Virus record (IMG/VR): IMGVR_UViG_3300016482_000014
Location: 1-64,000 of that record
DNA from: an uncultured virus (IMG/VR IMGVR_UViG_3300016482_000014)
Taxonomy: Duplodnaviria > Heunggongvirae > Uroviricota > Caudoviricetes
Length of the DNA stretch: 64,000 nt
Reading direction: 5' to 3' (one strand)
How positions within the stretch are numbered: the first letter of the stretch is position 1; each line of letters begins with the position of its first letter. Below are positions 28,434 through 55,972 of this stretch, in pieces. A program made the position numbers and the translations under genes. A model generated the notes under the pieces. It was not told the origin of the DNA. It ran no database searches and saw only the letters and a list, made by a program, of their open reading frames with translations.

Positions 28434-28462
28434 CTTCATACGGTATTAAGAAGGAGAGAGAA

Positions 28463-29539: not shown

Positions 29540-29540
29540 T

Positions 29541-30709: not shown

Positions 30710-30729
30710 ATGAGAAAACGGAGAGATTG

Positions 30730-31295: not shown

Positions 31296-31302
31296 GAGAA
31301 CC

Positions 31303-32155: not shown

Positions 32156-32165
32156 GGAGCATTAC

Positions 32166-38099: not shown

Positions 38100-38115
38100 A
38101 ACGTATCCACCATAA
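38083..38115 (+). pseudogene. Probable orphaned 5' end of VRR-NUC gene (MAATPKTYPP*)
   Basis: RBS GGAGAG then 10 codons; MAATP resembles the usual start of this nuclease family. Confidence 0.5.
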
Positions 38116-38160
38116 TTCATGTGTTATACTCCATACAGCAATTTATATTCTGGAGTTAAT

Positions 38161-39083: not shown

Positions 39084-40963
39084 TGGATTTGATTACGTTT
39101 GATGCCGAGACTTACTACGACCCTGAATACTCCTTGCGCAAATTGACCACCGAGCAGTACATCCGTGACCCACGTTTCGAGATGATTGGTTTTGCGATCA
39201 AGGTCAACGATGGCCCAACCGAGTGGTATACCGGTGACAAAGAGCATCTCGCATGGGTGCTGAGCGCGATTGACTGGAGCCGTGCGGCGCTGCTGTGCCA
39301 AAACACCGCATTTGATGCGGGGATACTATCATTCATCTTCGGGATTCAGCCCAAGCGGATGTTGGACACCATGTCGATGGGACGCGCAGCGCTCGGTGTG
39401 GACGTAAGCGTATCGCTGGAGAACCTAGCCAAGCACTATGGGGTCGGAGTCAAGGGTGATGAGGTGATCCACGCCCAAGGCAAACGCCGCAAGGACTTCA
39501 CGCCAGAAGAACTTGCCCGCTACGGACAGTACTGCATCAACGATGTGGATCTGACATACGAGGTGTATCACCGGATGATACAGAACGGGTTTCCGTTGCC
39601 AGAGTTAAAGCTGATCGACATGACCCTGCGGATGTTCACTGACCCACGACTGCATCTGGACACGGACTTACTGAAACAACATCTACAGGAAGTCAGGGCG
39701 GCGAAGCGGCAGCACTTGGTCAACACCCTTGAGGCAATCGGCAAGCCAGAACTTGCAGCCCTTGCCATGATGGACGGGGAGTCAAGCGAACCCATACAGA
39801 AAGCGTTGCGCTCAAATGACCAGTTTGCTGACCTGTTGGAGTCACTCGGTGTACCTGCCCCGACCAAGATCAGCCAGACGACAGGTAAGAAGACTTGGGC
39901 GTTTGCCAAGACCGATGACGGGTTCAGGGCATTGCAAGAACATCCAGATACGAGAGTACAGGCAGTTGTCGCTGCACGGTTGGGGGTCAAGACCACGCTG
40001 GAAGAGACCCGCACTGAACGGTTCATCGAGATGAGCGCCAGAGGTAAGTTTCCCATCCCGCTGAAATACGCAGGTGCCCGGACATATCGCTGGAGCGGCA
40101 TGGATTCAGTGAACCTTCAGAACCTGCCAAGCCGGGGGGACAATACCCTCAAGCGGGCAATTCAGGCACCGGAGGGGTATGTGATTGTCGGTGCTGACCT
40201 ATCCAACATCGAATTGCGGGTTGGTCTGTGGTTGGCCAAACAGATGGACAAGTTGGCGATACTGGGTGGTGGTGCGGATCTGTATAAGGACTTTGCTGCA
40301 AAGGTGTTCGAGGTGCACTATGCGGAAGTGACTAAAGAGCAGCGGTTCATCGGCAAGACCTCGCAGTTGAGTCTGATCTACGGTGTCGGTGCGGGTAAGC
40401 TGCGCCAAGCCATCAAGATCGGATCCGGCACGGACATTGGTGAGGCAGAATCCAAGCGTATCGTTGACTTGTACCGGCAGCAATACCACTTTGTAAAAAC
40501 ATCTTGGGAGGAAGGTGAGAACGCACTGGAGTGCATCTTACACAACCGCCAGCGAAGCTACGGCAACCGAGGCCTTGTCAAAGTGCACGGCAAGACGGGA
40601 TGCCTCCTGCCGTCAGGGTTGTATTTACGGTACCCAGAACTGCAGCGTATCAAGGAAGATGGCAAACAGAAGTGGGTGTACCAGACTCGCAAGGGGAGGG
40701 AATACCTGTATGGAGCGAAGTTCTTTCAGGGACTGGTGCAGAGCCTAGCCCGCTGTGTGATGGGTGAGCAGATGCTGGCGATCAGCAAGAAGTACCCGAT
40801 CGTGTTGACGGTACATGATGCTGTGTATATCCTAGCGGAGCAAAGCGACGCAGAAGCGGCTATGGATTTCATGCTGAAGGAAATGCGCACACCCCCGGCT
40901 TGGATGCCCGACATACCATTGGATGCAGAAGCGGCTTTTGGATCAACCCTTGCGGACTGTTAA
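39080..40963 (+). CDS. polA: Family A DNA polymerase with 3'-5' exonuclease
   Basis: DAETY exo I; NLQNLP; motif A DLSNIELR; motif B K...L...YG; motif C VHD. Confidence 0.92.
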   Translation: MMDLITFDAETYYDPEYSLRKLTTEQYIRDPRFEMIGFAIKVNDGPTEWYTGDKEHLAWVLSAIDWSRAALLCQNTAFDAGILSFIFGIQPKRMLDTMSMGRAALGVDVSVSLENLAKHYGVGVKGDEVIHAQGKRRKDFTPEELARYGQYCINDVDLTYEVYHRMIQNGFPLPELKLIDMTLRMFTDPRLHLDTDLLKQHLQEVRAAKRQHLVNTLEAIGKPELAALAMMDGESSEPIQKALRSNDQFADLLESLGVPAPTKISQTTGKKTWAFAKTDDGFRALQEHPDTRVQAVVAARLGVKTTLEETRTERFIEMSARGKFPIPLKYAGARTYRWSGMDSVNLQNLPSRGDNTLKRAIQAPEGYVIVGADLSNIELRVGLWLAKQMDKLAILGGGADLYKDFAAKVFEVHYAEVTKEQRFIGKTSQLSLIYGVGAGKLRQAIKIGSGTDIGEAESKRIVDLYRQQYHFVKTSWEEGENALECILHNRQRSYGNRGLVKVHGKTGCLLPSGLYLRYPELQRIKEDGKQKWVYQTRKGREYLYGAKFFQGLVQSLARCVMGEQMLAISKKYPIVLTVHDAVYILAEQSDAEAAMDFMLKEMRTPPAWMPDIPLDAEAAFGSTLADC

Positions 40964-40965
40964 CT

Positions 40966-41154
40966 ATGAGCAACAACCTAGACTATTCACCCCATACCAT
41001 CAAGACTCATCAAGGACTAAAAGCCATGCGGGTCGCGTTATTACACAATGATTTTGATAAAGCACTGGAAGTTGGCAGTGAGGCACTGGTAGAATTAAGG
41101 ATGGCGTTAATTGCCATTCAGGACATGAAAGAGAAGCATTACACGGAGAGATAA
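40966..41154 (+). CDS. Small hypothetical protein
   Basis: 62 aa between polA and nuclease. Confidence 0.55.
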   Translation: MSNNLDYSPHTIKTHQGLKAMRVALLHNDFDKALEVGSEALVELRMALIAIQDMKEKHYTER

Positions 41155-41156
41155 AG

Positions 41157-41825
41157 ATGCCTCAAGTAGCATGGTCGTTTTCTGCCCTCAAGACGTTCCA
41201 ATCCTGCCCCAAGAAGTACTACCACTTGAAGGTGGCCAAGGACGTAAAAGAGCAGCAGTCAGAGATCATGCTGTACGGTATCGATGCGCACAAAGCCGCA
41301 GAGTTGTACATCGCAAACAATCAGGAACTACCCGGAAAGTACGAGTTCATGCGTAAGCAGCTCGACAAACTCAAGGCGCTGGACGGGGATAAATACTGTG
41401 AGTTTAAGTTTGGCTTGACCAAAGAAATGCAACCCTGCGACTTTTTCGGTAGTAACGTTTGGCTGCGGGGAGCAATCGATTTATTGGTTGTGAACACCGA
41501 GAAGGGTATTGCCCGGATGATTGACTACAAGTTCGGCAAGTCAAAAAACGCTGATATGAGCCAATTGCAGTTGATGTCGCTGGCGGTGTTTAAGATGTTC
41601 CCTGAAGTCCAAAAGGTGAAAGCTGGCTTGCTATTCTGCGCAGAGGATAAGATGATGCCCATTCAATATGAGCAATCCAACGCGCCAACTATGTGGATGG
41701 ACTGGTTGCCAGAGGTTGCCAGATTGGAAGCAGCATACGAAAATAACGTGTGGAACCCCAACCCATCGGGGCTGTGCAAAGCGTGGTGCCCGGTGGTATC
41801 CTGTACACATAACGGGAAACGATGA
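41157..41825 (+). CDS. Cas4/RecB-like PD-(D/E)XK exonuclease
   Basis: WS.S....F..CP, G...H, G.IDL, IDYK.GK, C..CPV..C. Confidence 0.85.
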   Translation: MPQVAWSFSALKTFQSCPKKYYHLKVAKDVKEQQSEIMLYGIDAHKAAELYIANNQELPGKYEFMRKQLDKLKALDGDKYCEFKFGLTKEMQPCDFFGSNVWLRGAIDLLVVNTEKGIARMIDYKFGKSKNADMSQLQLMSLAVFKMFPEVQKVKAGLLFCAEDKMMPIQYEQSNAPTMWMDWLPEVARLEAAYENNVWNPNPSGLCKAWCPVVSCTHNGKR

Positions 41826-42094
41826 TGGCTAGAAACTACAAGCGTGAATACGAGCTGTACCACGACACGGAAGAGCAAAAGAAAAACCGTGCCAAGCGTA
41901 ACAACGCCCGTCGTCGTATGGAGCGTGAAGGCAAGGTTAGCAAGGGCGATGGTAAAGATGTAGATCATCGTCAACCACTGTCCAAGGGTGGTGGTAATGG
42001 CAAGAGCAACCTGCGGGTTGTCGATGCCAACAAGAACAGATCGTTTAGTCGTAACCCCGACCGGTCGGTCAAGCGCAATACCCCCAAGAAGTAA
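41822..42094 (+). CDS. Small HNH endonuclease
   Basis: GDGKDVDH..PLSKGG....NLRV.....NRS. Confidence 0.8.
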   Translation: MMARNYKREYELYHDTEEQKKNRAKRNNARRRMEREGKVSKGDGKDVDHRQPLSKGGGNGKSNLRVVDANKNRSFSRNPDRSVKRNTPKK

Positions 42095-42166
42095 TACCGA
42101 CTGGTAGTAGCAGTACCCCGTGCGACCCAAAGACCACTTTTGGGCGTTACGCTATTGGAGAGCAAT

Positions 42167-44650
42167 GTGGAAGTCATCGAGAACAAAGCGCTGAAGATGC
42201 GCCTGCGCAACCCCCACCGGGTGCTGGAAGTCATACCAAAGAGCAAGATCATCGAGCAGTACGAAGATGGCACAAGCGATGTGCTGGTTCACTGGTCGTT
42301 GGAAGCCGCTCAGGTATTGAAAAACTTGCGCATCAAAAACGTGCCATCCCCCATCATGGCCAAGTACAAGTGGCCGGGGACACGAGAGCCGTTCACACAC
42401 CAGAAGCAAACCGCAGCGTTCCTCACCCTCAACCGCCGTGCGTTTGTGTTGTCTGATCCGGGTACCGGGAAAACACTCAGCATGATATGGGCGGCGGACT
42501 ACCTGATGAACATCAAGCAGATCAAACGGGTACTGGTGATCTGCCCAGTGTCGGTGATGAAAGCCGCTTGGGTGAATGATTTGTTTCATGGTGCGATGCA
42601 CCGCACAGTTGCAGTGGCACACGGTACACGCCAACAACGCAAAGACGTGCTGGCAGAGAACACGGAGTTTGTGATTATCAATTTTGATGGTGTCGAGCTT
42701 TTGCTGCCCGAGCTACAGGAAGCTGGGTTTGATATGGTCATCATCGATGAGGCAAACTTCGTCAAGACCGCAACCACAAACCGCTGGAAAGCCATCAACA
42801 AACTGATTCGCCCTGACACATGGCTTTGGATGGCTACGGGTACTCCGGCTTCACAGTCACCGCTTGACGCATACGGGCTGGTCAAAATGATGCACCCGTC
42901 CACCGCCCCAAGATCGTTTGGTATATACCGTGACATGGTGATGAGTAAAGTCACCACATTCAAGTGGGTTCCCAAGCGTGATGCTAACAGCATTGTCAAT
43001 CGGATGCTGCAGCCCGCCATCAGATTTACCAAAGAAGACTGTCTGGATCTGCCAGATATCCTGTACACCACACGCGAAGTACCGTTGACCAAACAGCAGT
43101 GGAAACTCTATGAGCAGTTGCGAAAGAGTATGGCAGCGCAAGTTGCTGGAGAAACCATCAGTGCCGTGAACGCAGCCGTTGGTTTGCAAAAGTTATTGCA
43201 GGTAAGTTGTTTGAGTAGTGACACCCAAGTGTTGACGGACTCGGGATGGAAATATATACTCGATGTTACTACCTGTGATAACTTATGGGATGGTATTGAG
43301 TGGGTGTCACATGGTGGGGTTGTGCACAAAGGAAAGCGGCATACGTTGAATTTATCCGGGGTGCGGATGACCGGAGACCATCAGGTACTTACCGTATCAG
43401 GGTGGCACACTTGCAAGGAGATCATCGATGGGGCGAGTAGCAATAGATTTGAAAGGGCAACGGTTCGGATTCCTGACGGTTTTGGGGCGCAGTGGGTCTA
43501 CGGGACACCGCTGTGCAACATGGCTATGCCTGTGCGACTGTGGGAACAAGGTCGTGAGAAAGAGTCAAAGCCTACGAAGCAAAAATCGCCCATTAGGGAA
43601 CCATTGTGGATGTCAGGCGTTTGCGTACAACCGGGTTCATGGGATGACCCACTCCCGCCCATTCAAAATATGGTCAAGTATGCGGCGTCGGTGTTTAGAC
43701 AAACGGGACAAAGACTACAAAAATTATGGCGCACGGGGGGTAACAGTTTGCGACCGTTGGGTAAACTCATTTACCAATTTTTGGGAGGACATGCAGAGTG
43801 GGTATCGGGATGGGCTTACATTAGATCGGAAGAACAACAACGGGCCATACAACCCAGAAAACTGTTGGTGGGCGACCCCCAAACAGCAAGCAAACAATAC
43901 CCGGACAAATCAAATAATTATGACCCCAAAAGGAGCGATGAATATATCTCAAGCAGCAGAAGCGTATGGGATCAAAATGATTACATTACACGCCCGAGTA
44001 TATCGCTACAAATGGTCAATAGAAAAAGCGTTAACCCACCCAACTGGTCGGAAGATGTCTACGACATAATTAACGCAGGCCCCAGAAACCGCTTCACAGT
44101 TTTAGGAAACGACCGCCCGTTCATAGTACACAACTGTGGCACGGTGTATACGGATGACAAATCCACGGTTGAGCTGGATATCAGCGAACGATTCAAGGTA
44201 CTGGAAGAAGTGATCGACAGCACCGACAACAAGGTGCTGGTGTTTGTCCCGTATACGAATACGTTGGAAGTGTTGCAAGAGAAACTGCTTGCCAAAAAAT
44301 ACACGGTGGATGTGATCTACGGCAAGATCAGTGCTGGCAAACGCGCAGACGTTATCAAGCGATTCCAAGAGCAACCAGACCCGAGGGTGCTGTTGATACA
44401 ACCACAAGCTGCATCACATGGAATCACGCTACACGCTGCAGACACAATCGTGTGGTGGGGGCCGATCATGTCATACGAAACATACGTGCAAGCCAATGCC
44501 CGTATCCATCGCGCAGGACAAAAGAACAAATGCTTGGTGGTTCGACTACAAGGCAGTCCGGTGGAAGAGAAGCGCTACAAGGCGCTCGATACCTGCGAAG
44601 ACACGAACGAAAGTTTGTTGGAGATGTTCAAGCAAGTATTGACAATGTAA
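42167..44650 (+). CDS. SNF2-family helicase interrupted by an intein
   Basis: DPGTGKT, IIDEA, TGTP, HGITL, QA.ARIHR.GQ; GTG start after GGAGAG. Confidence 0.9.
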   Translation: MEVIENKALKMRLRNPHRVLEVIPKSKIIEQYEDGTSDVLVHWSLEAAQVLKNLRIKNVPSPIMAKYKWPGTREPFTHQKQTAAFLTLNRRAFVLSDPGTGKTLSMIWAADYLMNIKQIKRVLVICPVSVMKAAWVNDLFHGAMHRTVAVAHGTRQQRKDVLAENTEFVIINFDGVELLLPELQEAGFDMVIIDEANFVKTATTNRWKAINKLIRPDTWLWMATGTPASQSPLDAYGLVKMMHPSTAPRSFGIYRDMVMSKVTTFKWVPKRDANSIVNRMLQPAIRFTKEDCLDLPDILYTTREVPLTKQQWKLYEQLRKSMAAQVAGETISAVNAAVGLQKLLQVSCLSSDTQVLTDSGWKYILDVTTCDNLWDGIEWVSHGGVVHKGKRHTLNLSGVRMTGDHQVLTVSGWHTCKEIIDGASSNRFERATVRIPDGFGAQWVYGTPLCNMAMPVRLWEQGREKESKPTKQKSPIREPLWMSGVCVQPGSWDDPLPPIQNMVKYAASVFRQTGQRLQKLWRTGGNSLRPLGKLIYQFLGGHAEWVSGWAYIRSEEQQRAIQPRKLLVGDPQTASKQYPDKSNNYDPKRSDEYISSSRSVWDQNDYITRPSISLQMVNRKSVNPPNWSEDVYDIINAGPRNRFTVLGNDRPFIVHNCGTVYTDDKSTVELDISERFKVLEEVIDSTDNKVLVFVPYTNTLEVLQEKLLAKKYTVDVIYGKISAGKRADVIKRFQEQPDPRVLLIQPQAASHGITLHAADTIVWWGPIMSYETYVQANARIHRAGQKNKCLVVRLQGSPVEEKRYKALDTCEDTNESLLEMFKQVLTM
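43208..44134 (+). mobile_element. Intein (309 aa)
   Basis: LLQVS|CLSSDTQVLT..GW (block A), MTGDHQVLT (block B), VYDI (block F), IVHN|C (block G, Cys+1). Confidence 0.93.
43428..44069 (+). CDS. HNH-type homing endonuclease nested in +1 frame inside the intein
   Basis: RBS AAGGAG 43415-20; WLCLCDCG...CGC...W.SM..RC...YGARG..VC.RW...F..DM...TLDR.NN.G.Y.P.NC.WAT...Q.NN. Confidence 0.9.
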   Translation: MGRVAIDLKGQRFGFLTVLGRSGSTGHRCATWLCLCDCGNKVVRKSQSLRSKNRPLGNHCGCQAFAYNRVHGMTHSRPFKIWSSMRRRCLDKRDKDYKNYGARGVTVCDRWVNSFTNFWEDMQSGYRDGLTLDRKNNNGPYNPENCWWATPKQQANNTRTNQIIMTPKGAMNISQAAEAYGIKMITLHARVYRYKWSIEKALTHPTGRKMSTT

Positions 44651-44667
44651 ATATACCGCTTTACAAT
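44639..44667 (+). promoter_or_regulatory. Sigma70 promoter
   Basis: TTGACA-N17-TACAAT. Confidence 0.75.
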
Positions 44668-44689
44668 GTAAGTTCATTAGGAGAGAAAC

Positions 44690-46508: not shown

Positions 46509-49430
46509 ATGACACCCTTAGATTTTTTTCGGTTAGTAACTCCAAGCCAAGGGGTGTATTGTTTCGCGGCCATATCTAACGGGAAGGTTGAGCATGTATT
46601 TTTGGAGTCTGTCGAGGATCTCGCTGGTATCAGCGAAGCCGTCATCGATGGTATTGACCAGTACTACACTCCCGCAACATTCAAAGTGCAGGGCAAACGC
46701 ACACAGGCAAATACTGCCAAGGTAAAAGCGTTTTGGTTTGACATCGATGTAGGTAAAGCCAACGACAAATGCTATTCCACACAAGATGAAGCCACAGACG
46801 CAATTGATGCGTTTCTTGCTGCGACAAACCTGCCAGACCCCCTGTGGGTCAACTCCGGCAACGGAATCCATCTGTACTGGCCTTTCAACAAAGAGCTTGA
46901 TGCAGAAGTGTGGAAGCCTATCGCTGGGCGTTTGCAAGCATTGGCACTCAAGCATGGTTTGCTGGTGGATACATCATGCACAACAGACAGCGCAAGACTG
47001 CTGCGCTATCCCGGATCGAAGAATTACCGCGACCCACAGAACCCCAAGCAAGGAAGTATCCTGACGGATACCTATGAACCGTTGGATCTGATGGATTTTG
47101 CAGGGAAGCTCGGATTGGGCGATACCAGCCAAGATTCAGATGAGCAAGACGAAGCATTGCCATTTTCCGTGCCTGACCATATCAAGCACGTTGACGACGA
47201 CATAAATAAAAGCATTGTTGGTGTAACGGTGTTCAAGATCATCATGGATCGATCTGACTCCTGCCAGCAACTGCAACACATTCGCAAGGAGAGAGAATCT
47301 TTACCAGAACCATTGTGGAGAGCAGGATTATCGATTGCACAGATCTGCGAGGATCGGGAAGACGCTATCAAGGCTGTGTCTGAGGGCCACCCAGATTACA
47401 GCTACGCTGCCGCAGAGAAGAAAGCTGCACAGACCAATGGCCCCTACACATGCCAAGCGTTTGAGAAGCTGGACTCCGAGCGGTGTAAAGGTTGCAAGCA
47501 CTACGGCAAATTGTCCACGCCCGCGCAGTTGGGACGGTATGTGGCTCCCGCTGTAACGGAAGAAGACCGCACGGTGGAAGTCCCCAAGCCTACGGCTACT
47601 GCTACGGTGTTGTTGCATCCCAGCATCCAACCAGCAAAGACAGTTATTCCAGAGTACCCCAGCCCCTACTTCCGACCGAAAGGCGGCATGGGTGTGCATA
47701 AAGTAGTGAAAGTGCAGGGCGAACCAGACACCTCGGTTCAGATCTGTGAATACGATTTTTATGTGACACGCCGGATGGTCGACCCGGATGTGGGCGAAGT
47801 ACTGTGGTTCAGACTACATATGCCGCTTGATGGGATCAGAGAGTTCAGCATCCCCCTTTCGGACGCAGTGGCACGAGATAAGTTACGCGATGCTCTCGCG
47901 ATGCACGGTGTGATGACAATCGACACCAAGCAGGTAACGGAGTATCTGGTTTACGTTAAAAAATGGTTGAGGCATCTACAAATGACAAAGCAAGCAGAAA
48001 AAGTACGATCCCAAATGGGCTGGACAGACGATGGCACGTTTGTCGTTGGCACCAAGGAGCTTGTTGCTGGGCAACCGGAAGGGCAAGACATCTTGTATGC
48101 GCCACCCGCAACTAAGAACATGAACATCATCCCTGCGATGACCGATCGTGGCGACTTCCACAAGTGGAAAGAGGTGATTAACTTCTACGCCAACGATGAC
48201 ATGGAAGCCTATGCGTTTGCCGTGTTCCTGAGTTTCGGTGCGCCACTCATGCAGTTCACGCCCTTGCGTGGTGGTGTATACAACCTAGTCAGTGAGCATT
48301 CCGGTATCGGTAAGTCTTCGGCTTTGCTGGCTGCGAACAGCATCTGGGGGCATCCGTTTGATCTGCTCATGCAAAAAGACGACACCTATAACGTGCGTAT
48401 CCACCGTGCGGGGGTCATGCGCCATCTGCCGCTGACGATTGACGAAATCACCAACATGAAGCCCATGGAGCTTTCTGATCAGGTCTATGCCAGCACATCC
48501 GGTCGGGGGAAAAACCGCATGGAGACGCACACCAATACCGAGCGCCTAAACCTGACGACATGGCAGACCCCCACGCTGACCACCTCCAACTCCAGCATTT
48601 CTGACAAACTGTTTATGAACAAAAGTTTTCCGGAAGGCGAGTTGATGCGCGTGATCGAGGTCGGAGTCCAGCGCAATACAAAATATCCCAAGTCGTATAC
48701 CGATATGTTGTTCCCGCAACTGGAGCATAACTACGGGATGGCATGGTTGCCCTACATGCGGTACATCATGAACAACCAGAGTGACGTTATCGGTATGCTG
48801 CGCCGCACACAAGAGAAGACAGACTCAGCCGCAAACCTGACGCAGCGTGAGCGGATCTGGTCAACGATGGCAGCGATCGGGCTGACGGGGGGTGCGATTG
48901 CACATTCTCTGGGGCTGCATGATATCAACGTAGAGCGGGTCGCACGGTGGGTGGCTGGACATATGTTTGACAGCTCCAAGAACATCACGCAATCCAGCAG
49001 CACGATGGAAGAGCATATCGCCGCATACATGGCTGAGAACTACACCAACATGCTGATGATTCGCAACGAGCCGGATATTGGCGAGATGTCCGTGATCCCA
49101 ATCATTGAGCCTCGCGGTGAGTTGTTGATTCGGTGTGAGCCTGATACCCGCCGTATCTTTATCGCCATCGGGCCGTTCAAGAAGTGGTGCGCAAAGAACC
49201 AGATTACGTACGCATCGGTAACACAATCGCTTGAGCGCAGTGGTATCAAGGTGGAAACGCTGAAAAAACGCATGTCCAAGGGTACGGCAATTACCATGCC
49301 CCCGGTGTCCACGATCATGATTCAGGTGCCAGACAATGTGGCAGGGTCTGTGTTTGGCTTAGACGAGATGGATAAGATCGATGAAGAGAAGAAAGCGGCC
49401 ACAATTGAAGCTCTTGCCCGCACCGCCTAA
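46509..49430 (+). CDS. Primase-helicase (AEP/RepB-like primase + DUF927-like helicase)
   Basis: FWFDID, NSGNGIHLYW, D.ARLLR.PG; GP..C; SGIGKS Walker A; IDEIT. Confidence 0.85.
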   Translation: MTPLDFFRLVTPSQGVYCFAAISNGKVEHVFLESVEDLAGISEAVIDGIDQYYTPATFKVQGKRTQANTAKVKAFWFDIDVGKANDKCYSTQDEATDAIDAFLAATNLPDPLWVNSGNGIHLYWPFNKELDAEVWKPIAGRLQALALKHGLLVDTSCTTDSARLLRYPGSKNYRDPQNPKQGSILTDTYEPLDLMDFAGKLGLGDTSQDSDEQDEALPFSVPDHIKHVDDDINKSIVGVTVFKIIMDRSDSCQQLQHIRKERESLPEPLWRAGLSIAQICEDREDAIKAVSEGHPDYSYAAAEKKAAQTNGPYTCQAFEKLDSERCKGCKHYGKLSTPAQLGRYVAPAVTEEDRTVEVPKPTATATVLLHPSIQPAKTVIPEYPSPYFRPKGGMGVHKVVKVQGEPDTSVQICEYDFYVTRRMVDPDVGEVLWFRLHMPLDGIREFSIPLSDAVARDKLRDALAMHGVMTIDTKQVTEYLVYVKKWLRHLQMTKQAEKVRSQMGWTDDGTFVVGTKELVAGQPEGQDILYAPPATKNMNIIPAMTDRGDFHKWKEVINFYANDDMEAYAFAVFLSFGAPLMQFTPLRGGVYNLVSEHSGIGKSSALLAANSIWGHPFDLLMQKDDTYNVRIHRAGVMRHLPLTIDEITNMKPMELSDQVYASTSGRGKNRMETHTNTERLNLTTWQTPTLTTSNSSISDKLFMNKSFPEGELMRVIEVGVQRNTKYPKSYTDMLFPQLEHNYGMAWLPYMRYIMNNQSDVIGMLRRTQEKTDSAANLTQRERIWSTMAAIGLTGGAIAHSLGLHDINVERVARWVAGHMFDSSKNITQSSSTMEEHIAAYMAENYTNMLMIRNEPDIGEMSVIPIIEPRGELLIRCEPDTRRIFIAIGPFKKWCAKNQITYASVTQSLERSGIKVETLKKRMSKGTAITMPPVSTIMIQVPDNVAGSVFGLDEMDKIDEEKKAATIEALARTA

Positions 49431-49647
49431 ACCAGTAAATGAATGGCGGTTCACGACTGAAGGGGTGGAGTTTGTTCTGAACTGGGACAAGCTCCCCATT
49501 CACGGGTTTGTATTTATCCCGTGCATAGAAACTGAAAAAGTAAGTATGTCGTTACGCAAGGAAGCCAGCAAGCAGGGGATATCCCTATCCCTCAAAGTTG
49601 GTATTCGGAACGGATACTGGGGAGTTGGAGTTTGGCGGACACGGTGA
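49381..49647 (+). CDS. Small hypothetical protein
   Basis: 88 aa, FIPC...G.GVWR. Confidence 0.55.
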   Translation: MKRRKRPQLKLLPAPPKPVNEWRFTTEGVEFVLNWDKLPIHGFVFIPCIETEKVSMSLRKEASKQGISLSLKVGIRNGYWGVGVWRTR

Positions 49648-49658
49648 TATACTGCACA

Positions 49659-49746
49659 CGTACCGGTTCTCTCCCCGGTACGGACATTCTCTCCTTTTGG
49701 TTCTGATGTGGTGACACCCCCGGCCCTCTCCTGCCGGGGGTTTTTT
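49659..49746 (+). ncRNA. Candidate anti-Shine-Dalgarno sRNA ending in a terminator
   Basis: Extended -10 TGaTATACT 49645-53; 8-bp hairpin with loop TTCTCTCC; linker TTCTCTCCTT; terminator with loop CCTCTCCT and T6. Confidence 0.65.
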
Positions 49747-52700
49747 ATTCCTTGAGCTTCATATAGTCGGTGCGCACCCGCCCGATGTCAGACAAGATCT
49801 CAGTCTCGACCCGCTTCAGTTCGTTGATCGCATCACGACGCTCCGCACCTGAGATGCCAATGTTGGCACCAGACTCGTAAAGTTTTTTCTGCTCACGGAT
49901 GGTACGCAGAAGTTTGAGCTTGGCGTTGACGTACGGTGCGGCTGCAAGCAAGTGGTAGTTTTTCTCAATGAACTTGGCCTGCTTTTCAGGATCATCCTTG
50001 AGCGAGTTTTTGCCAGCCACCGCAGCGGCAACTTTTTCACGGAATTCGTAGAAGTCATCCTTCGTGCGAGATCCCACCGGTGCCATGATACCGATACTCA
50101 AGAACGGCAACTGTTCCAACCCACGATCAGGACGGGCAGGGTTCATCATGGAATCTAGCATCATTGACGCCGTAGATCCCATCAAACCGAAGTACCCACG
50201 CACGAAGTTATCGATCTGAATCGGTGAGGTGGAGGTCTGCTCGCCCAACCATTTCGCAAACTCAGATGTTGCCGGGGTGTACTGAAGCGCGGCTGGTTTG
50301 GCTTTAAGTGACGGTGAAATCAGTTCTCGCTTGGTAAAGAATGAGAAGTTCGTGTAGTTCTCCAGCGCAGGGCGCAGGATCGCAGGGATTGGCTCGTTGC
50401 CATACACCGTCACGGCTCCTCGCAGGAAGTCCAGCGCAGCGTCTACAGCGGGCTTGGCTTCGTCCTTTGAGTGATCCTTGTAGTACTGAATTGCCCGCTC
50501 AGGGATGGATTTGAAGATAAACCCAAGTTCGACTGGCACTGGGATCTTGAGCGACTGCTTCATACCAAACGCATCACTGACCGATTTTGGCAGTATCCAT
50601 GCACGATCCCGCACTTCGTCTGACGTTTCCTCGTAACCCTCGTCGTCGCTCATCACAAGCGCATACATGGTACCCATCGCCATCATGGTCAGGATACGTG
50701 ACACGAACATACCAGCAGCGGCTCTTTTTGCCATGCCAGAAGACGCATCTTCACCGGTAAACCCACGATACAGCAAGTCAGTACCTTGCGCCCACGAGTT
50801 AAAGAACGGGATGATATGGGTGAGCATCCGCATGGTCTTAGATGCGCCACGGCGGTTGAAGTTGATTAACTCACGCGCACGGGATTGGGCGAGTACCGCA
50901 TCCCCGGTTTCCCGCATGGTTTGCTCATACACCGCCAGACGTGCTGCCATGTCAGAAGCTTTTGTCACCTGCTCCATGGCATGAACCAGCGCACGGACTG
51001 GACTGCGGCGCACTGCATTGGTGTCAAACTCCACCGTTTCGATTGGGTTGATGGGATTGAAGTCATAGTCACCAACAATCCCGGAACGCTCCAGTGAATC
51101 AATGACGGCTTTGTTTCCACCAAAGTTCTTCAGGAACAAGATGCGGGGCAGGTTGATAAGCGTTTTGCCCATCGCTGCCAGCGGATTCTTGACGCCAGAG
51201 TAGAACATCACCCGCTGTGCATCATCAAACACCTGCTTGAGCGCAAACATGGGGGTGGCTGTCACCGTGGTACGTAGAAGTCTTGAGCTTGCAGAAAACA
51301 CGTTGATCAGACTACCCTTGATCTCGGGAGCCTCGGCAAACGCTGCCAAGTCGTACTGGTTCTGCACTTCAAAGAATACAGGGTTGCCGCCCTCGTACAG
51401 TGCGGGCAGTACCAAATGCGTATTGGTAGCGTTCTTGGGACTATCCAGTTTGGTAGCCATACCTGCATCGGCCATGATATTCAACGTACGCACCACAGCC
51501 GAGTTGCGCATGGATTGTTCGGTCATCCAAGCCAGCTTGTGCATGTAGTTGTCAATGGCGTTTGCCACTGGGCGACCGAGTGAACCTTTCAACTGCGGCA
51601 GTTTACCAAGCGCGGCAATACCCCTGCGACCAGCAGCAAATACGATTTCCGGATTCTCGCTGATGTCTTTGAGTCGATCGAACGGTACATAGTTGACTGC
51701 GGCTTTCCAGTTGTCAGCCTGCTCCTTGTGGATACGCCCAGAAGTGACCATCGCATCGATCAGATTGCTGCGAACTGTATTCATGATTCGCTGGATTTCT
51801 TGGATCTCAGGACTCTTATTGAACACGGCTACCAGCGCATCAATTTCTGCGTTAGTTCTATGCAGCAGTACTTTACCCAACCGGGTTTCGTAAGCAGCAT
51901 CAACATCACCAGCAGCGGCTTGCTCAAGCGCCAGCGTTTCCAACTTACGGTTATGATCCCGCAGTTCTTTAAGCCGCATTCCTTCCAGTACCGTTGCCAC
52001 TTTCGCTTTGGTGGTCGGGTACGTCGAGTTGTTCTTCTTGGCAAGCTCCGCCAGTTTTTCCACAATCATTTGCGGAGACGCGGGTTTACCCTGACTATCT
52101 TTCAGTTCAGTAGCTGTCCAAAGACCATTCGACTCGAGCTTCAACCCACCCGTGCGGTATACCTGCAACGCAATACGTTGATGGTCAAATGCTTGGCGCA
52201 TCCAGACAATTGGGTTCACATCGCCAAACTGCCCGCGCACTCCTTGGGAAAACGCATCGCTCAAACGCTTGGCGATTGGAGCCAAAATATCCACAGTCTG
52301 TTGACGAATCAATGTGGCGTAGCCTGCCTCACCCTGACTGATGGTGTTGAGGAACTTGCGCATTTCCGTGCGCTGAACCTGATTGGGGGCTTGATTGACC
52401 TGAGCCAACGAGGTGGGCAGGGGTTGACCTAACGGTGTGTTGACGTTTTGTGCAGCGTACGCAATATCGGAAGCAAAGATAGACTTGCCAGTCGTGCGCA
52501 TCTGCAACTCACGCCCAGACCGCATCAAACCGTCGACTGCCACCATAGCGGTGAACAGCACGTTGCCTTGGGGTGAACCTTCTGCAATACCCAGCAAAGA
52601 GCGCAGCGCACGGGCAAACCACGAGAACACCGACTGGTTGCGGTACGGCATACCCATCAACTGAAACTGGAAGTCACGGTTTGACATGGCTTCTGAGGCA

Positions 52701-55700
52701 AACTCAGTCAGACTGGATAGCCCATACTCTTTGGCCAGATCCGGGCGGCTTGCCTTCACATGATCATAGACTTCTTGCAGCGTACGGAAGTTGGGGTTAC
52801 GAGCCTGCCCACGCTCTTGCAGCACGATGGAGCGGTGGACAAACGCATGGATCATCTCATGCAGGAATGTATGGGAATCCGCAGCACCCTGCACCAGCGC
52901 AATTTCGTCGTTGATGGAGTTGTACTCGCCCAGTATGGGTTCGCCGTTCACGTCGTTACCCAAGGAGTCCACCATACGCATAGTGGGCATGGGCATCTTC
53001 ATATCAAGAATACGGCGGGCAACGAGCTGTTCCTTGGGGTTAAACACCCCAGAGTTGTCATTAACGATGACTTGCAGTGCCGCAATAGGATCTTTCGCTG
53101 TGAATGCTTTGATCAGATTGTCGGTTACAGCACCCGCTGAGTCACCAGTTGCTTGCAGTGTCTGTACAGCGTTAGGAATACTCTGGTCTTTTGATTTCTG
53201 TAGCATACCCTCCAAACTGCCAGCAGCACCTACGATATCGCCTTCCGCAATTTCCTCCGCAATCTTCCTGCGGTCTATCTGTGTGATCAACCCACTGTCG
53301 GCAGCATCACGAGCCAATCTTGCCAACGCCTTGGGGTCAACCGTTTCGCCCATCTGCAACTCAGCTACACGTTGCAGCGCCTCATCATGGGAAGTAGTTT
53401 CGGAGGGTAGGGTGGTTACTGGAGCAGGTGCTTGTTCGATTCCCTGAGTGTCGATTCCAGCTCGTTCAGTAGGGCGAACCAATCCTCCTGACTCAGGTGC
53501 TGTAGTGGCTCCGGTGGTACCCTCTTGTGTGGCGGTTGGGATACTGCCCACGTCAACCACTCCCACGCCTCGCTCACTTGGTTGTCCGACAGTGGCTGGC
53601 TCAGTTGGAGTTGGTGCGGGCTTGACATCTTTAGCTCCTTGCGTTTGGGGCATCTCTTGAATAAGGTATCCGCCCTGACCATCTTGCGCAACCACACGGA
53701 ACGTAGCATCACGAGATGTAGTTTGGGATATTTCTGATTCGTATTCCTGTGCGGTTTCAGGATCAAACGTAACCCACGATAGATCTTTGGAGGGTATGGT
53801 TGAAAGATCAATTCCCGGTGTTGCGGTAACACCTTCGTTGCCTAGTTCATCTCGCTCGTAAGCAACTATATCTGCAGCGGTCATATCTGTTGGCATACCA
53901 CTGCTTCCGGTGCGATATACCGTACGAGACTGAATATCAGGTGTAACACCCACAGTTTCAGCCGCAGGAGCCTCGACCACAGGAGCAGTGTCAACCGGTA
54001 ACTGCCCCAAGAACGTATCAATATTTTCTTTGATACTCTCTGAGCGGTTCGGGGCGTCGCGGTATGTCTCCAGCACATTACGCACAAACTGACGGTCTTC
54101 AGGCTTGGTCAGGTCGGCATTGCGCAGGTCTGCATTTTTACGAAGCACCGCTGTCTTGCCAATACCCAACGTATCAAACACAGAGTCATCGACCTTCGTG
54201 GGTGCGACGGGTGCTGCGGGAGGCAGTTCAGCCTCAAAATCAAGCGCACCTTGTGCGGCTGGCACGGGTGCAGCTAACTTACTATCATACAAATTCTGTA
54301 GTTTTTCTTTAACTTCGGGCTTAACCTGCGGGTTCTGCATCGCACGACCAATAACCTCTGCGGCCTTGGTGCGTTGATCCGCATCACCCAAATCCAACCC
54401 CGACAACTGCTTAGTATATGCAGCCGATTTCGGCAACCCAATGTCGAGTAGTTCCTGCGGTTTGATTGTGAGGTCTACTGGTGCTGGAGCAGGAGCAATC
54501 TGTGGTGGCCCAAGCTCTCGCATAACGATTTGCTCAGGCTGTGCAGGAGTAGCGGCTTCGAATACAGCCGCCGAAGCTTTTGCTCTTTGCTCTTCTGGGA
54601 TATCCTTGACTTCTTCTTTTGCCAGCTTTGCACGGCGTGTGGGTTCCAACCCAATAGTCTTGGCAAATGCCTGACCTTCACCGATCTTGTCGTTGACGAG
54701 CTTCAACTGCTCGTTGATTTGCTGACGAACTTCCTTGTTTGCCGACACACGATCGAGGTTTTGTTTGAGGATCGTGAGGTTATCTTTGGCGGCATAGAGT
54801 GAGTTCAGGCTGTCATCCAGTCCTTCCACTTCCAGTGAAACACCCGCAACACCTTGCCCAATCTCACCTACTTTTGCACTGAGTTCTTCCGCAGTTTTGA
54901 TCTGTGCGGCTTCCTCTTCCTGTTTCTGTAGTTCGAGGGCTTGCAGTTCACGCTCTCGCATGACATCGGCGGTTTCTTGCTCTTGGCGCAAAATGGCTTC
55001 GCGCTCGGGTGTCATGGGAGGTTCAATCGCCTCACCAGTGGGAGTCAGCCCACGAGCTTCCAATTCTTGACGAGCAGCACGACGATCCAATGGAGACGCC
55101 ACCGCACCGATCGCTGGGCCAGCCTGCAACGCACCATAGGCAGCAAGGCCATATTTCTCAATCGCATCATCAGAGAGCAGATCCTGCCCAGACTGCCAAC
55201 GCTCTAGTACGGTCTGTGCCACTTCCACTGGGATCTCGGACAAACCTCGTGCAGCACCCCTGCCAGCACCACCAGCCAACGAAGCCTGTGCGGTTTGCAG
55301 GAGTTGTTTCTCGGCAAGCTCCTTGGAGACTTCTTTACCGATCATCTTGCCGATCAGGTTTTTACCAAGAGTGAACGCCGTGCCACCGGCTTCAAGGGCT
55401 GTCTGTCCAGCAGCGGCAACGGCAGCGCTGCTCCTATCCAATTCCAGTTGTTTCTTTTGCTCTTGGGCTACTCGTGCTTGCTCTTCGAGGTTGGCACCAA
55501 AAAACTGTGGATACAGATACCCAGCCGCACCCGCGATACCGCCAATCGTGGCTCCAACAGGGCCAGCTAGCGCACCTACTTTTGCACCAGCAAAACCTGC
55601 ACCAAGCGTACCAAGAATGTTCGCGCCTTGTTCAGCAACCGCACCGGGAATCTGAGAGACGAACTCACCTGCCGCAGGAAGGAACCCCTCACGTTGGTAG

Positions 55701-55972
55701 ATATCTTTGACCTCTGCAAACCCACGAGTGGGGCCAACGGCACGACTGATGCGTTCTTGTTCGGCAGCGCCAGCTTTTGCGGCAGCGGCGGCTTCTTCCG
55801 GGGTACCAATCGCACCACGAACACCTGTACCAATACTGGTTCCAGCACGTTCAAACGAGGACGTAAACCGTTTACCCAGTGAGGCTTCTTCTTGGGGCTT
55901 GAACGCATCTTCAAAAGAAAAGGTCTCGGAAGGCTTTTGCAAAGCCTCCTCAAACGAGAATTTCTCAGCCAT
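49745..55972 (-). CDS. Large polyvalent internal virion protein (zincin HExxH; LPD38-like C-terminus)
   Basis: 2075 aa; TFLHEMIH...EF.SEA..N..F; NF.R.G...IPFFN...QG; SP.QID....GYFG. Confidence 0.7.
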   Translation of the reverse strand: MAEKFSFEEALQKPSETFSFEDAFKPQEEASLGKRFTSSFERAGTSIGTGVRGAIGTPEEAAAAAKAGAAEQERISRAVGPTRGFAEVKDIYQREGFLPAAGEFVSQIPGAVAEQGANILGTLGAGFAGAKVGALAGPVGATIGGIAGAAGYLYPQFFGANLEEQARVAQEQKKQLELDRSSAAVAAAGQTALEAGGTAFTLGKNLIGKMIGKEVSKELAEKQLLQTAQASLAGGAGRGAARGLSEIPVEVAQTVLERWQSGQDLLSDDAIEKYGLAAYGALQAGPAIGAVASPLDRRAARQELEARGLTPTGEAIEPPMTPEREAILRQEQETADVMRERELQALELQKQEEEAAQIKTAEELSAKVGEIGQGVAGVSLEVEGLDDSLNSLYAAKDNLTILKQNLDRVSANKEVRQQINEQLKLVNDKIGEGQAFAKTIGLEPTRRAKLAKEEVKDIPEEQRAKASAAVFEAATPAQPEQIVMRELGPPQIAPAPAPVDLTIKPQELLDIGLPKSAAYTKQLSGLDLGDADQRTKAAEVIGRAMQNPQVKPEVKEKLQNLYDSKLAAPVPAAQGALDFEAELPPAAPVAPTKVDDSVFDTLGIGKTAVLRKNADLRNADLTKPEDRQFVRNVLETYRDAPNRSESIKENIDTFLGQLPVDTAPVVEAPAAETVGVTPDIQSRTVYRTGSSGMPTDMTAADIVAYERDELGNEGVTATPGIDLSTIPSKDLSWVTFDPETAQEYESEISQTTSRDATFRVVAQDGQGGYLIQEMPQTQGAKDVKPAPTPTEPATVGQPSERGVGVVDVGSIPTATQEGTTGATTAPESGGLVRPTERAGIDTQGIEQAPAPVTTLPSETTSHDEALQRVAELQMGETVDPKALARLARDAADSGLITQIDRRKIAEEIAEGDIVGAAGSLEGMLQKSKDQSIPNAVQTLQATGDSAGAVTDNLIKAFTAKDPIAALQVIVNDNSGVFNPKEQLVARRILDMKMPMPTMRMVDSLGNDVNGEPILGEYNSINDEIALVQGAADSHTFLHEMIHAFVHRSIVLQERGQARNPNFRTLQEVYDHVKASRPDLAKEYGLSSLTEFASEAMSNRDFQFQLMGMPYRNQSVFSWFARALRSLLGIAEGSPQGNVLFTAMVAVDGLMRSGRELQMRTTGKSIFASDIAYAAQNVNTPLGQPLPTSLAQVNQAPNQVQRTEMRKFLNTISQGEAGYATLIRQQTVDILAPIAKRLSDAFSQGVRGQFGDVNPIVWMRQAFDHQRIALQVYRTGGLKLESNGLWTATELKDSQGKPASPQMIVEKLAELAKKNNSTYPTTKAKVATVLEGMRLKELRDHNRKLETLALEQAAAGDVDAAYETRLGKVLLHRTNAEIDALVAVFNKSPEIQEIQRIMNTVRSNLIDAMVTSGRIHKEQADNWKAAVNYVPFDRLKDISENPEIVFAAGRRGIAALGKLPQLKGSLGRPVANAIDNYMHKLAWMTEQSMRNSAVVRTLNIMADAGMATKLDSPKNATNTHLVLPALYEGGNPVFFEVQNQYDLAAFAEAPEIKGSLINVFSASSRLLRTTVTATPMFALKQVFDDAQRVMFYSGVKNPLAAMGKTLINLPRILFLKNFGGNKAVIDSLERSGIVGDYDFNPINPIETVEFDTNAVRRSPVRALVHAMEQVTKASDMAARLAVYEQTMRETGDAVLAQSRARELINFNRRGASKTMRMLTHIIPFFNSWAQGTDLLYRGFTGEDASSGMAKRAAAGMFVSRILTMMAMGTMYALVMSDDEGYEETSDEVRDRAWILPKSVSDAFGMKQSLKIPVPVELGFIFKSIPERAIQYYKDHSKDEAKPAVDAALDFLRGAVTVYGNEPIPAILRPALENYTNFSFFTKRELISPSLKAKPAALQYTPATSEFAKWLGEQTSTSPIQIDNFVRGYFGLMGSTASMMLDSMMNPARPDRGLEQLPFLSIGIMAPVGSRTKDDFYEFREKVAAAVAGKNSLKDDPEKQAKFIEKNYHLLAAAPYVNAKLKLLRTIREQKKLYESGANIGISGAERRDAINELKRVETEILSDIGRVRTDYMKLKE

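What the first reader, a model, noticed from the sequence alone, without database searches (positions are those of the whole stretch)
49645..49746. Candidate phage sRNA with three anti-Shine-Dalgarno motifs matching the phage's own early/replication RBSs
Seen: extended -10 TGaTATACT, then hairpin CGTACCGG-TTCTCTCC-CCGGTACG (49659-82), linker TTCTCTCCTT (49687-96) and terminator ACCCCCGGC-CCTCTCCT-GCCGGGGGT-T5. CUCUCC occurs three times in 88 nt, twice in loops. The complementary GGAGAG is the RBS of many plus-arm genes: 27521, 28453, 30720, 37209, 37706, 38072, 39071 (polA), 41145, 42157 (helicase) and 44680, with 9-10 nt perfect matches at 37207-16 and 44679-87. Late genes I checked mostly use GGAGC, GGAGT, AAGGAA or GAGGTG (exception: 16370-16558). 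Inference: an RNA-based early-to-late switch that silences one SD class, or a repressor of host mRNAs. It is reminiscent of bacterial sRNAs with anti-SD loops.
Basis: partly seen in the sequence, partly recalled or inferred. Interest (0 to 1): 0.85.

Follow-up and report, generated by a model that had tools for sequence, protein, structure and literature searches.

The report
Conserved phage small RNA with anti-RBS loops
An uncultured 66-kb phage and its close relatives carry a small conserved RNA gene whose exposed CUCUCC motifs can pair with the GGAGAG ribosome-binding sites that this phage uses for many of its early and replication genes, so it may be an RNA switch that turns those genes down.

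Summary
The sequence is as described. The 97-nt gap between the early (+) arm and a convergent late gene holds a promoter (TTGGAG, 17 bp, TG-n-TATACT), a 5' hairpin with a CUCUCC loop, a single-stranded CUCUCC tract and an intrinsic terminator.

All 14 distinct homologues from related phage contigs keep this layout. The stem covaries, the stop codon is always TGA, and a synonymous T that forms the -35 TTG is invariant. I conclude it is a real sRNA gene of about 87 nt. No Rfam family reaches threshold. The third motif, in the terminator loop, is lineage-specific (2 of 14).

The RBS claim largely holds:
- GGAGAG lies in the RBS of 14 of 53 plus-arm genes against 1 of 38 minus-arm genes (p=0.003).
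- Four complete distant relatives that lack the sRNA have none in 315 genes.
- A hairpin with a GGAGAG loop sits at the 5' end of the main early operon.

Against: one sRNA-bearing lineage has no GGAGAG RBS in 10 kb, orthologous RBSs drift, the seed is only 6 nt, the host is unknown and no RNA data cover the locus.

Verdict: a new phage anti-Shine-Dalgarno sRNA family. Self-targeting of an early RBS class is plausible but unproven.

The parts
49625..49630 (+). -35-like TTGGAG, 17 bp upstream of the -10, inside the last codons of the small ORF
   Evidence: The Val codon GTT that supplies TT(G) is invariant in 15 of 15 rows, while neighbouring wobble positions vary.
49645..49653 (+). Extended -10 promoter TG-A-TATACT; TGA is also the stop codon of the small ORF
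   Evidence: TGATATAMT is invariant and the stop is always TGA in 15 of 15 rows. The next 5-6 nt are variable. Only 3 TGNTATAMT sites occur in the window.
49659..49682 (+). 5' hairpin of the RNA (8-bp stem, 8-nt loop UUCUCUCC); the predicted transcription start is near 49659-61
   Evidence: Fold. 93.8% of cells are paired against 31-55% when the partner is slid. 4 of 8 pairs show compensatory change, and 0 of 500 shuffles reach the covariation score.
49669..49674 (+). Seed 1: CUCUCC in the hairpin loop
   Evidence: CUCUCC lies in the loop in 13 of 14 variants (CUUCUCC in L012).
49687..49696 (+). Seed 2: UUCUCUCCUU in the linker, mostly single-stranded
   Evidence: A CU tract with CUCC is present in 13 of 14 variants (L018 has CUGUCC). 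It is predicted paired in L031 and L033.
49716..49746 (+). Rho-independent terminator (9-bp GC stem, loop CCUCUCCU, U6) with a lineage-specific third CUCUCC at 49726-31
   Evidence: A terminator hairpin plus U run is present in all 14 variants, with different compensating stems. The loop motif occurs only in the window and L015.
49381..49647 (+). Small conserved ORF (88 aa) whose 3' end carries the sRNA promoter
   Evidence: Alignments A1 and A3. No Pfam or PHROG family. AlphaFold2 pLDDT 82.7 with no PDB fold match.
49745..55972 (-). Convergent late virion gene (2075 aa, LPD38 domain). Its stop codon overlaps the U run, and there is no U tract after the hairpin on this strand
27434..27489 (+). 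Candidate target leader: sigma-70 consensus promoter TTGACA-17-TATAAT with TG, followed at the start site by a perfect 8-bp hairpin (27467-89) whose 7-nt loop UGGAGAG complements seed 1
   Evidence: It is the only strong sense-strand hairpin presenting GGAGAG in the window. Its conservation could not be tested.
27521..44685 (+). GGAGAG-class RBSs of early and replication genes, at 27036, 27521, 28453, 30720, 31736, 33264, 33634, 34776, 37209, 37706, 39071, 41145, 42157 and 44680
   Evidence: Predicted seed-to-RBS duplexes have a median of -12.4 kcal/mol for early genes against -9.4 for late genes, p=0.0015.

Best explanation
The gap holds a real, independently transcribed small RNA gene of about 87 nt (roughly 49660-49746, + strand). 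Host RNA polymerase starts at a promoter with an extended -10 built into the last codons and stop codon of the upstream small ORF. It stops at the intrinsic terminator shared with that operon. This is the architecture of 3'-UTR-type sRNAs that have their own promoter. The RNA displays a conserved CUCUCC in the loop of its 5' hairpin and a second CU tract in a single-stranded linker. I infer that these act as anti-Shine-Dalgarno seeds. They would pair with GGAG(AG) ribosome-binding sites and block 30S binding. The most likely targets are the phage's own GGAGAG-class early and replication mRNAs, including the leader hairpin and first RBS of the operon that starts at 27467. As the RNA accumulates it would damp that gene class. 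Shown here: the gene anatomy, its conservation and covariation, the RBS-class bias, and its co-occurrence with the sRNA. Inferred: transcription, pairing, repression and timing.
For: Anatomy.

Conservation: all 14 distinct homologues keep the promoter, hairpin, CU tracts and terminator.

Structure: the hairpin is 93.8% paired, with 4 compensatory pairs, and 0 of 500 shuffles reach the score.

Promoter constraints at synonymous sites: GTT, the TGA stop and TATAMT are each kept in 15 of 15 rows.

Distribution: covariance model R1 finds only this locus (68.7 bits) in the window. It finds nothing in four complete distant relatives. Three of them clearly keep the synteny (primase, small ORF, convergent late gene) with no gap in between.

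RBS bias within the genome: GGAGAG is in the RBS of 14 of 53 early genes against 1 of 38 late genes, Fisher p=0.003.

Pairing energies: seed duplex energies favour early start regions (p=0.0015). Complementarity to the 16S anti-SD does not differ (p=0.37). 0 of 200 shuffled seeds separate the arms as well.

Relatives without the sRNA: 0 of 73, 79, 84 and 79 genes have GGAGAG RBSs. In a scan that does not depend on gene calls, GGAGAG made up 7 of 289 GGAG-plus-start sites, against 16 of 75 in the window.

Relatives with the sRNA: GGAGAG is kept at polA (3 of 3), the Gam-like gene (4 of 6), orf295 (4 of 7) and the helicase (2 of 5).

Leader: a hairpin with a GGAGAG loop follows the strong promoter.

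Weak Rfam resemblances, all on the + strand, include anti-SD-type sRNAs.
Against: No transcript evidence exists. The only metatranscriptome contig lies at 48904-49096, inside the primase gene.

The L007/L008 lineage keeps the sRNA but shows 0 GGAGAG RBSs in 10 kb of early genes.

Positions 5-6 of orthologous RBSs drift among GGAGAG, GGAGAA, GGAGAC and GGAGTT. PDDEXK keeps GGAGAG in 1 of 6 lineages.

Among genes with a GGAG core, the early-versus-late bias is only p=0.07.

The seed is 6 nt, and longer perfect matches are not above chance.

Three of the GGAGAG genes are paralogues with near-identical start regions, so the counts are not fully independent.

The co-occurrence of sRNA and GGAGAG RBSs is one clade-level event. 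A different host could explain it.

My gene calls and start choices are home-made.
Confidence: 0.45

Rival explanations
1. The sRNA is real and uses the same CU seeds, but its biologically relevant targets are host mRNAs or a host sRNA or protein. The GGAGAG bias of the phage's early genes would then have another cause, for example a purine-rich or S1-related preference, or a nuclease that reads GGAGR as T4 RegB does.
For: The loop CUCUCC is invariant even in the lineage whose early genes lack GGAGAG RBSs. Phage RBS positions 5-6 drift. The linker varies between CUCUCC, CUCCCCC and CCUCCU, all of which share the generic anti-SD core CUCC. T4 RegB recognises GG*AGRAYARAA at early RBSs (PMC3014915 passages).
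Against: GGAGAG RBSs are absent from four sRNA-less relatives and frequent only where the sRNA exists. The early-versus-late energy bias is specific to the real seeds. No RegB family was found among the 69 of 91 ORFs scanned with Pfam. The host is unknown, so no host target could be examined.
Confidence: 0.25
2. There is no trans-acting RNA. The conserved hairpin and terminator would simply be the 3' UTR of the primase/small-ORF operon (a stabiliser and termination insulator between convergent units), and the promoter-like sequence would be a by-product of the stop codon region.
For: The element occupies the whole convergent gap and shares its terminator with the upstream operon. No RNA data exist. 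The -35 matches the consensus in only 3 of 6 positions.
Against: A mere stabiliser does not explain several features: the invariant loop and linker CU motifs beside freely covarying stems, TATAMT kept outside the ORF while the next 5-6 nt vary, the stop always being TGA, and the invariant synonymous T of GTT. Distant relatives do without any gap.
Confidence: 0.15
3. The minus strand is the functional one. Late-operon transcripts run through the gap because there is no U tract after the hairpin on that strand. They would carry GGA-containing hairpin loops (AGGAGAGG, GGGGAGAGAA) that bind a CsrA/RsmA-type protein. Alternatively, the late 3' UTR and the sRNA could neutralise each other as a cis-antisense pair.
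For: The minus-strand fold is as stable as the plus-strand fold (-38.4 kcal/mol, z = -4.23) and has GGA in both loops. The late gene's stop codon abuts the hairpin in all relatives. No minus-strand terminator tail is present.
Against: The conserved promoter, the U run and the Rfam-type resemblances are all in the + orientation. The terminator-loop GGA is not conserved. Whether the unknown host has CsrA was not examined.
Confidence: 0.08

Closest known systems
Alphaproteobacterial ar14 / NfeR1 ('cuckoo') sRNAs
   Same: Several copies of a pyrimidine-rich anti-SD motif are displayed in unpaired regions of a short RNA. The stems vary while the motif is ultraconserved. The motifs act redundantly by occluding ribosome-binding sites (PMC10746234, passages seen).
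   Different: Their motif is CCUCCUCCC in three hairpins. Here it is CUCUCC, and only two copies are conserved, one in a loop and one in a linker. The Rfam ar14 score is 19.2 bits against a threshold of 58.8. This RNA is encoded by a phage with no integrase or repressor found, not by a chromosome.
Burkholderia anti-hemB (RF02837) and Betaproteobacteria toxic sRNA (RF02278)
   Same: Short RNAs with a CU-rich exposed tract and a strong terminator. Both gave sub-threshold Rfam matches on the + strand. The toxic small RNAs are expressed in Burkholderia and toxic when cloned in E. coli (PMC4603805 passages).
   Different: Scores are 22.4 against a threshold of 49.5, and 20.8 against 50. This RNA is not a member of either family. 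The function of those families is itself poorly known.
T4 RegB endoribonuclease
   Same: A phage tool that recognises the SD dialect of its own early mRNAs (GGAG, consensus GG*AGRAYARAA) and inactivates them (PMC1702504 abstract; PMC3014915 passages). This matches the logic proposed here.
   Different: RegB is a protein nuclease helped by ribosomal protein S1. Here the agent would be an RNA acting by base pairing. No RegB family was found in the 69 of 91 ORFs scanned.
P1/P7 c4 antisense RNA
   Same: A phage-encoded RNA whose loop-exposed sequences pair around the RBS of a phage mRNA (ant) and block its translation (review PMC12197685, passage seen).
   Different: c4 is processed from the same transcript as its single target and serves prophage immunity. 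Here there is a separate gene, a possible class of targets, and no lysogeny genes found.
3'-UTR sRNAs with their own promoter inside the upstream gene (MicL, DapZ)
   Same: The promoter lies within the end of the upstream coding sequence and the terminator is shared with the mRNA. MicL is described as transcribed from within cutC (PMC4102768 abstract, seen only in the search listing). DapZ is recalled from memory.
   Different: Those are host envelope or metabolism regulators that depend on Hfq. No sequence relation exists, and Hfq dependence is unknown here.

Membership tests
Rfam ar14 (RF02344) | Covariance-model score at or above the gathering threshold (58.8 bits) | tested here: not met
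   19.2 bits, E = 0.097. No match at gathering thresholds in the whole window.
Rfam ar14 (RF02344) | Three hairpins, each with an identical CCUCCUCCC motif | tested here: not met
   The motif is CUCUCC. One conserved copy is in a loop and one in a linker. The third copy occurs in 2 of 14 variants.
Rfam anti-hemB (RF02837) / Betaproteobacteria toxic sRNA (RF02278) | Score at or above the gathering threshold (49.5 / 50 bits) | tested here: not met
   22.4 and 20.8 bits.
Trans-acting base-pairing sRNA gene (generic) | Own promoter | tested here: met
   TTGGNN, 17 bp, TG-n-TATAMT is conserved in 15 of 15 rows, including a synonymous site and the choice of stop codon. This is sequence evidence only.
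Trans-acting base-pairing sRNA gene (generic) | Intrinsic terminator | tested here: met
   (14 of 14 variants).
Trans-acting base-pairing sRNA gene (generic) | Conserved structure with covariation and a conserved unpaired seed | tested here: met
Trans-acting base-pairing sRNA gene (generic) | Discrete transcript of the predicted size | tested here: inconclusive
   The RNA-run contigs found do not cover the locus, and contigs cannot show transcript ends.
Trans-acting base-pairing sRNA gene (generic) | Regulation of a target through seed pairing | not testable with these tools
   Only complementarity statistics are available.
CsrB/RsmZ-type protein sponge (minus strand) | Many GGA-bearing hairpin loops in an RNA with its own promoter and terminator on that strand | tested here: not met
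   There are two to three GGA sites. No terminator tail or conserved promoter exists on the minus strand. The terminator-loop GGA is not conserved.
T4 RegB-like system | A RegB-family nuclease gene | tested here: not met
   No such Pfam hit among the 69 of 91 called ORFs scanned. The remaining large genes were identified by PHROGs as other functions.

The most novel reading that the evidence does not exclude
The phage has evolved a private Shine-Dalgarno dialect (GGAGAG) for its early and replication module, together with a matching multi-seed sRNA that reads that dialect. The sRNA would be made constitutively from a host-type promoter and would rise with genome copy number. It would form a loop-loop kiss with the GGAGAG hairpin at the 5' end of the main early operon (27467-89) and occlude the GGAGAG RBSs downstream, shutting off the whole class. 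That would make it an RNA-only counterpart of T4 RegB and a self-contained early-to-late translational timer in a lytic phage.
Probability: 0.22. Interest if true: 0.8.

Novelty: new member of a known kind. Interest (0 to 1): 0.62.

Why it matters
Few sRNAs of lytic phages have a known role, and none that my searches found is reported to silence a whole class of the phage's own genes through a shared ribosome-binding-site sequence. This locus is well defined and small. It has 14 natural variants, clear seed motifs, a candidate leader target and sRNA-less relatives as natural controls. The idea can therefore be tested directly with two-plasmid reporters, even though the host is unknown. If confirmed, it would add an RNA-based route to temporal gene control in phages. 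It would also give a compact, portable tool for switching off genes that carry a chosen RBS variant.

Tried and rejected
- Rfam at gathering thresholds gave no family. The sub-threshold hits are resemblances only.
- blastn of the locus against cultured phages found nothing. The nearest cultured phages are distant: terminase about 45% identity to the HTVC023P/027P type, primase 28% to Pseudomonas phage Rollin. Rollin has no gap at the equivalent junction.
- RNA expression: one metatranscriptome contig (X20) lies at 48904-49096. X19, which is probably DNA, covers 49386-49669. Neither gives support for or against the sRNA.
- The genome-contig scan with the small ORF returned one hit, in a Chthoniobacter MAG. 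It is a chance match to a membrane protein with no element beside it.
- The IMG/VR pattern scan returned 7 known family members plus 3 chance hits (L051-L053) that lack the ORF, hairpin and terminator.
- Relatives of the first gene of the GGAGAG operon are at most 42% identical and do not share its leader, so the leader hairpin could not be tested.
- Structure of the small ORF: a confident model but no PDB fold match at E <= 0.001. I dropped the idea that it is a recognisable RNA chaperone.
- A Q-antitermination-type leader (short terminated RNA before late genes) was rejected, because the gene downstream of the terminator runs the other way.
- A small peptide encoded in the RNA was rejected: only AUG-UGG-UGA is present.
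- The weak R1 hit at 22317-22368 (E = 0.13) is just another terminator.

Full report
**Setting.** The window is the first 64 kb of a complete 66,013-bp virus record with direct terminal repeats. It has three arms:
- a minus-strand late arm (1-21.2 kb: terminase, portal, capsid, tail);
- a plus-strand early and replication arm (21.7-49.6 kb: polA, helicase, primase/polymerase and many small ORFs);
- a second minus-strand arm of very large virion proteins (49.7-64 kb).

No tRNA and no Rfam family at gathering thresholds were found. Cultured relatives are distant. The finding occupies the entire 97-nt gap between the last plus-arm gene, a small ORF ending at 49647, and the stop codon of a convergent 2075-aa late gene at 49745-47.

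**Observation.**
- The RNA folds into a 5' hairpin, a weakly structured linker and a terminator hairpin: -39.3 kcal/mol, z = -3.87. The terminator is also picked up by the consensus scan.
- CTCTCC occurs three times in this 88-nt stretch and nowhere else on the + strand of the 28-kb early arm.
- All ten listed GGAGAG sites exist. Nine are correctly spaced before real-looking genes. The one at 38072 precedes only a 10-codon ORF.

**Is it a gene? Comparative evidence.** I searched with the primase and with the small ORF in IMG/VR and in metagenome contigs. Together with the window this gave 14 distinct versions of the element, from phages whose primase is 70-89% identical. All 14 keep the same order of parts.
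- *Extended -10.* TGATATAMT is invariant. Its TGA is the stop codon of the small ORF, and the stop is never TAA or TAG.
- *-35.* The Val codon 20 nt upstream is always GTT, which gives TTGGNN at a 17-bp spacing. The wobble positions of the neighbouring codons vary freely.
- *Spacer.* The 5-6 nt after the -10 are variable.
- *5' hairpin.* The stem changes by compensation: A-U to G-C, C-G to U-A, G-C to A-U. 93.8% of cells are paired against 31-55% for slid partners, 4 of 8 pairs are compensatory, and 0 of 500 shuffles reach the covariation score.
- *Loop.* It holds CUCUCC in 13 of 14 variants (CUUCUCC in L012).
- *Linker.* It holds a second CU tract: CUCUCC in most variants, CUCCCCC in L007/L008, CCUCCU in L031/L033, and a mutated CUGUCC in L018.
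- *Terminator.* Different but always self-complementary terminator stems are followed by a U run.
- *Third motif.* The terminator-loop copy is present only in the window and its 98%-identical relative L015.

This pattern, with invariant exposed motifs and promoter hexamers beside freely covarying stems and spacers, is what a functional sRNA gene looks like. I put the existence of the sRNA at about 0.8. The gene layout, with the promoter inside the end of the upstream ORF and a shared terminator, matches 3'-UTR sRNAs that have their own promoter.

**Distribution.**
- A covariance model (R1) finds only this locus in the window (68.7 bits) and nothing in four complete, more distant relatives.
- Those relatives have a primase that is 28-32% identical. 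Three of them (L083-L085) clearly keep the primase, small ORF and convergent late gene, but the two genes abut with no gap. The element is therefore an insertion or innovation of one subclade.
- A pattern scan of IMG/VR returned only the known family plus three chance hits.

**The RBS-class claim.**
- With a simple home-made gene call (91 ORFs; starts chosen by complementarity to the generic 16S anti-SD), GGAGAG lies in the -20 to -3 window of 14 of 53 plus-arm genes and 1 of 38 minus-arm genes (Fisher p = 0.003). Among genes with a GGAG core it is 14 of 34 against 1 of 12 (p = 0.07).
- Predicted duplexes between the three exposed sRNA segments and the start regions are stronger for early genes than for late genes (median -12.4 against -9.4 kcal/mol, p = 0.0015). 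Complementarity to the 16S anti-SD does not differ (p = 0.37). None of 200 shuffled seed sets separates the arms as well.
- The GGAGAG genes cluster between 27.0 and 44.7 kb. They include DUF3150, an AAA ATPase, DUF3310, a PD-(D/E)XK nuclease, polA, the helicase and a Gam-like protein.
- The four complete sRNA-less relatives have no GGAGAG RBS in 73, 79, 84 and 79 called genes. With the same strand-blind gene calling, the window has 13 of 46 plus-strand genes and 0 of 34 minus-strand genes.
- In a scan that does not depend on gene calls, GGAGAG makes up 16 of 75 GGAG-plus-start sites in the window. In the relatives it is 4 of 65, 1 of 59, 2 of 98 and 0 of 67.
- In sRNA-bearing relatives, GGAGAG is kept at polA (3 of 3 lineages with data), the Gam-like gene (4 of 6), orf295 (4 of 7), the helicase (2 of 5) and PDDEXK (1 of 6).

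**Evidence against the self-targeting reading.**
- The L007/L008 lineage keeps the sRNA with its CUCUCC loop but has no GGAGAG RBS in its 10 kb of early genes.
- Orthologous RBSs flip among GGAGAG, GGAGAA, GGAGAC and GGAGTT.
- Three of the GGAGAG genes are paralogues with nearly identical start regions.
- The seed is six bases. The 9-10-nt perfect matches are not more numerous than chance genome-wide.
- The co-occurrence of sRNA and GGAGAG RBSs is a single clade-level event, and a different host could explain it.
- No RNA data cover the locus.

**A new lead.** The best sigma-70 promoter in the window is TTGACA at 27434-39, 17 bp, TG-n-TATAAT at 27457-62. It is one of only three TGNTATAMT sites.
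- Exactly at the expected start site it is followed by a perfect 8-bp hairpin (27467-89). Its 7-nt loop, UGGAGAG, is the complement of the sRNA's loop motif.
- About 30 nt further on comes the GGAGAG RBS of the first gene of the GGAGAG-rich block.
- It is the only strong sense-strand hairpin in the window that presents GGAGAG in its loop.

The leader thus has one looped and one single-stranded GGAGAG, and the sRNA has one looped and one single-stranded CUCUCC. This suggests a loop-loop kiss followed by RBS occlusion. I could not test its conservation, because no close relative in the collections covers this region.

**Mechanism proposed.**
- *Shown:* gene anatomy, conservation, covariation, the RBS bias, and the co-occurrence with the sRNA.
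- *Inferred:* host RNA polymerase makes the RNA. Its exposed CU seeds pair with GGAG(AG) ribosome-binding sites and block initiation. The phage's own GGAGAG-class early mRNAs are the most likely targets, and repression grows as the RNA accumulates.
- *Confidence:* I give the whole chain 0.45.
- *Rivals:* host targets with the RBS bias having another cause (0.25); a purely cis-acting 3' UTR and terminator (0.15); a minus-strand reading, either a late 3' UTR with GGA loops for a CsrA-type protein or a cis-antisense pair (0.08).

**Comparison with known systems.**
- The nearest analogues in architecture are the alphaproteobacterial ar14/NfeR1 sRNAs. They have three redundant CCUCCUCCC anti-SD motifs in unpaired regions (PMC10746234, passages).
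- The CU-rich betaproteobacterial sRNAs anti-hemB and the toxic sRNA family are also close in architecture (PMC4603805 passages).
- All Rfam scores are far below threshold, so this RNA is a member of none of these families.
- In logic the closest system is T4 RegB, a protein that inactivates early mRNAs by recognising their GGAG-type SD (PMC1702504 abstract; PMC3014915 passages).
- The closest phage RNA is c4 of P1/P7, which blocks the RBS of ant (PMC12197685 passage).
- My literature searches listed no phage sRNA reported to target an RBS class of its own genes. I read only listings, abstracts and the cited passages. The supplementary table of 38 uncharacterised phage sRNAs in PMC12197685 was not opened.

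**Verdict.** This is a real and previously undescribed phage sRNA family of the anti-Shine-Dalgarno type. The self-directed RBS-class switch is a serious hypothesis that can be tested directly, and it is not yet a result. Interest 0.62.

Noticed in passing
window 21602, 22325, 22495, 23460, 23747, 25102, 27506, 28435, 30076 (+ arm): A palindromic 15-mer, TT(C/A)ATAC-N-GTAT(T/G)AA, recurs about nine times in the first third of the early arm, mostly just upstream of RBSs. There are 19 strand-matches against 0.79 expected. It may be an operator for a repressor or an intercistronic RNA hairpin or processing site.
   Followed up: partly
window 27434-27489: A consensus sigma-70 promoter with an extended -10 is followed at the start site by a perfect 8-bp hairpin with loop UGGAGAG, complementary to the sRNA loop. 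Its conservation could not be tested.
   Followed up: partly
window 49381-49647; L083-L085: A small conserved protein (85-94 aa in the close relatives) has a basic N-terminus encoded in a second frame over the primase 3' end. The model is confident (three strands, a helix, two strands; pLDDT 82.7). It has no Pfam, PHROG or PDB match. Homologues also exist in sRNA-less relatives.
   Followed up: partly
window 33276, 33646, 34788 and 33951, 34303, 36668: Two sets of small early paralogues have nearly identical translation start regions: GGAGAGGAT(G/A)AA-ATG and AAGGAGAAGAACC-RTG.
   Followed up: no
window 11868-12623 (-) and 2893-3594 (-): Two homing-endonuclease-like genes lie inside the late arm: GIY-YIG plus NUMOD3, and NUMOD3 plus I-HmuI-like.
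   Followed up: no
window 38084-38116 and 38122-38130: A 10-codon mini-ORF with a perfect GGAGAG RBS lies at the end of the DUF3310 gene. It is followed by a third TG-n-TATACT promoter-like site before the gene that starts at 38161.
   Followed up: no
window 21400-49640 (+ strand): The sense strand of the early arm holds no CUCUCC at all outside the sRNA. My rough estimate is 4-7 expected. This might reflect avoidance of self-pairing with GGAGAG RBSs.
   Followed up: no
window 23155-23193: A run of N (masked bases) lies in the early arm.
   Followed up: no
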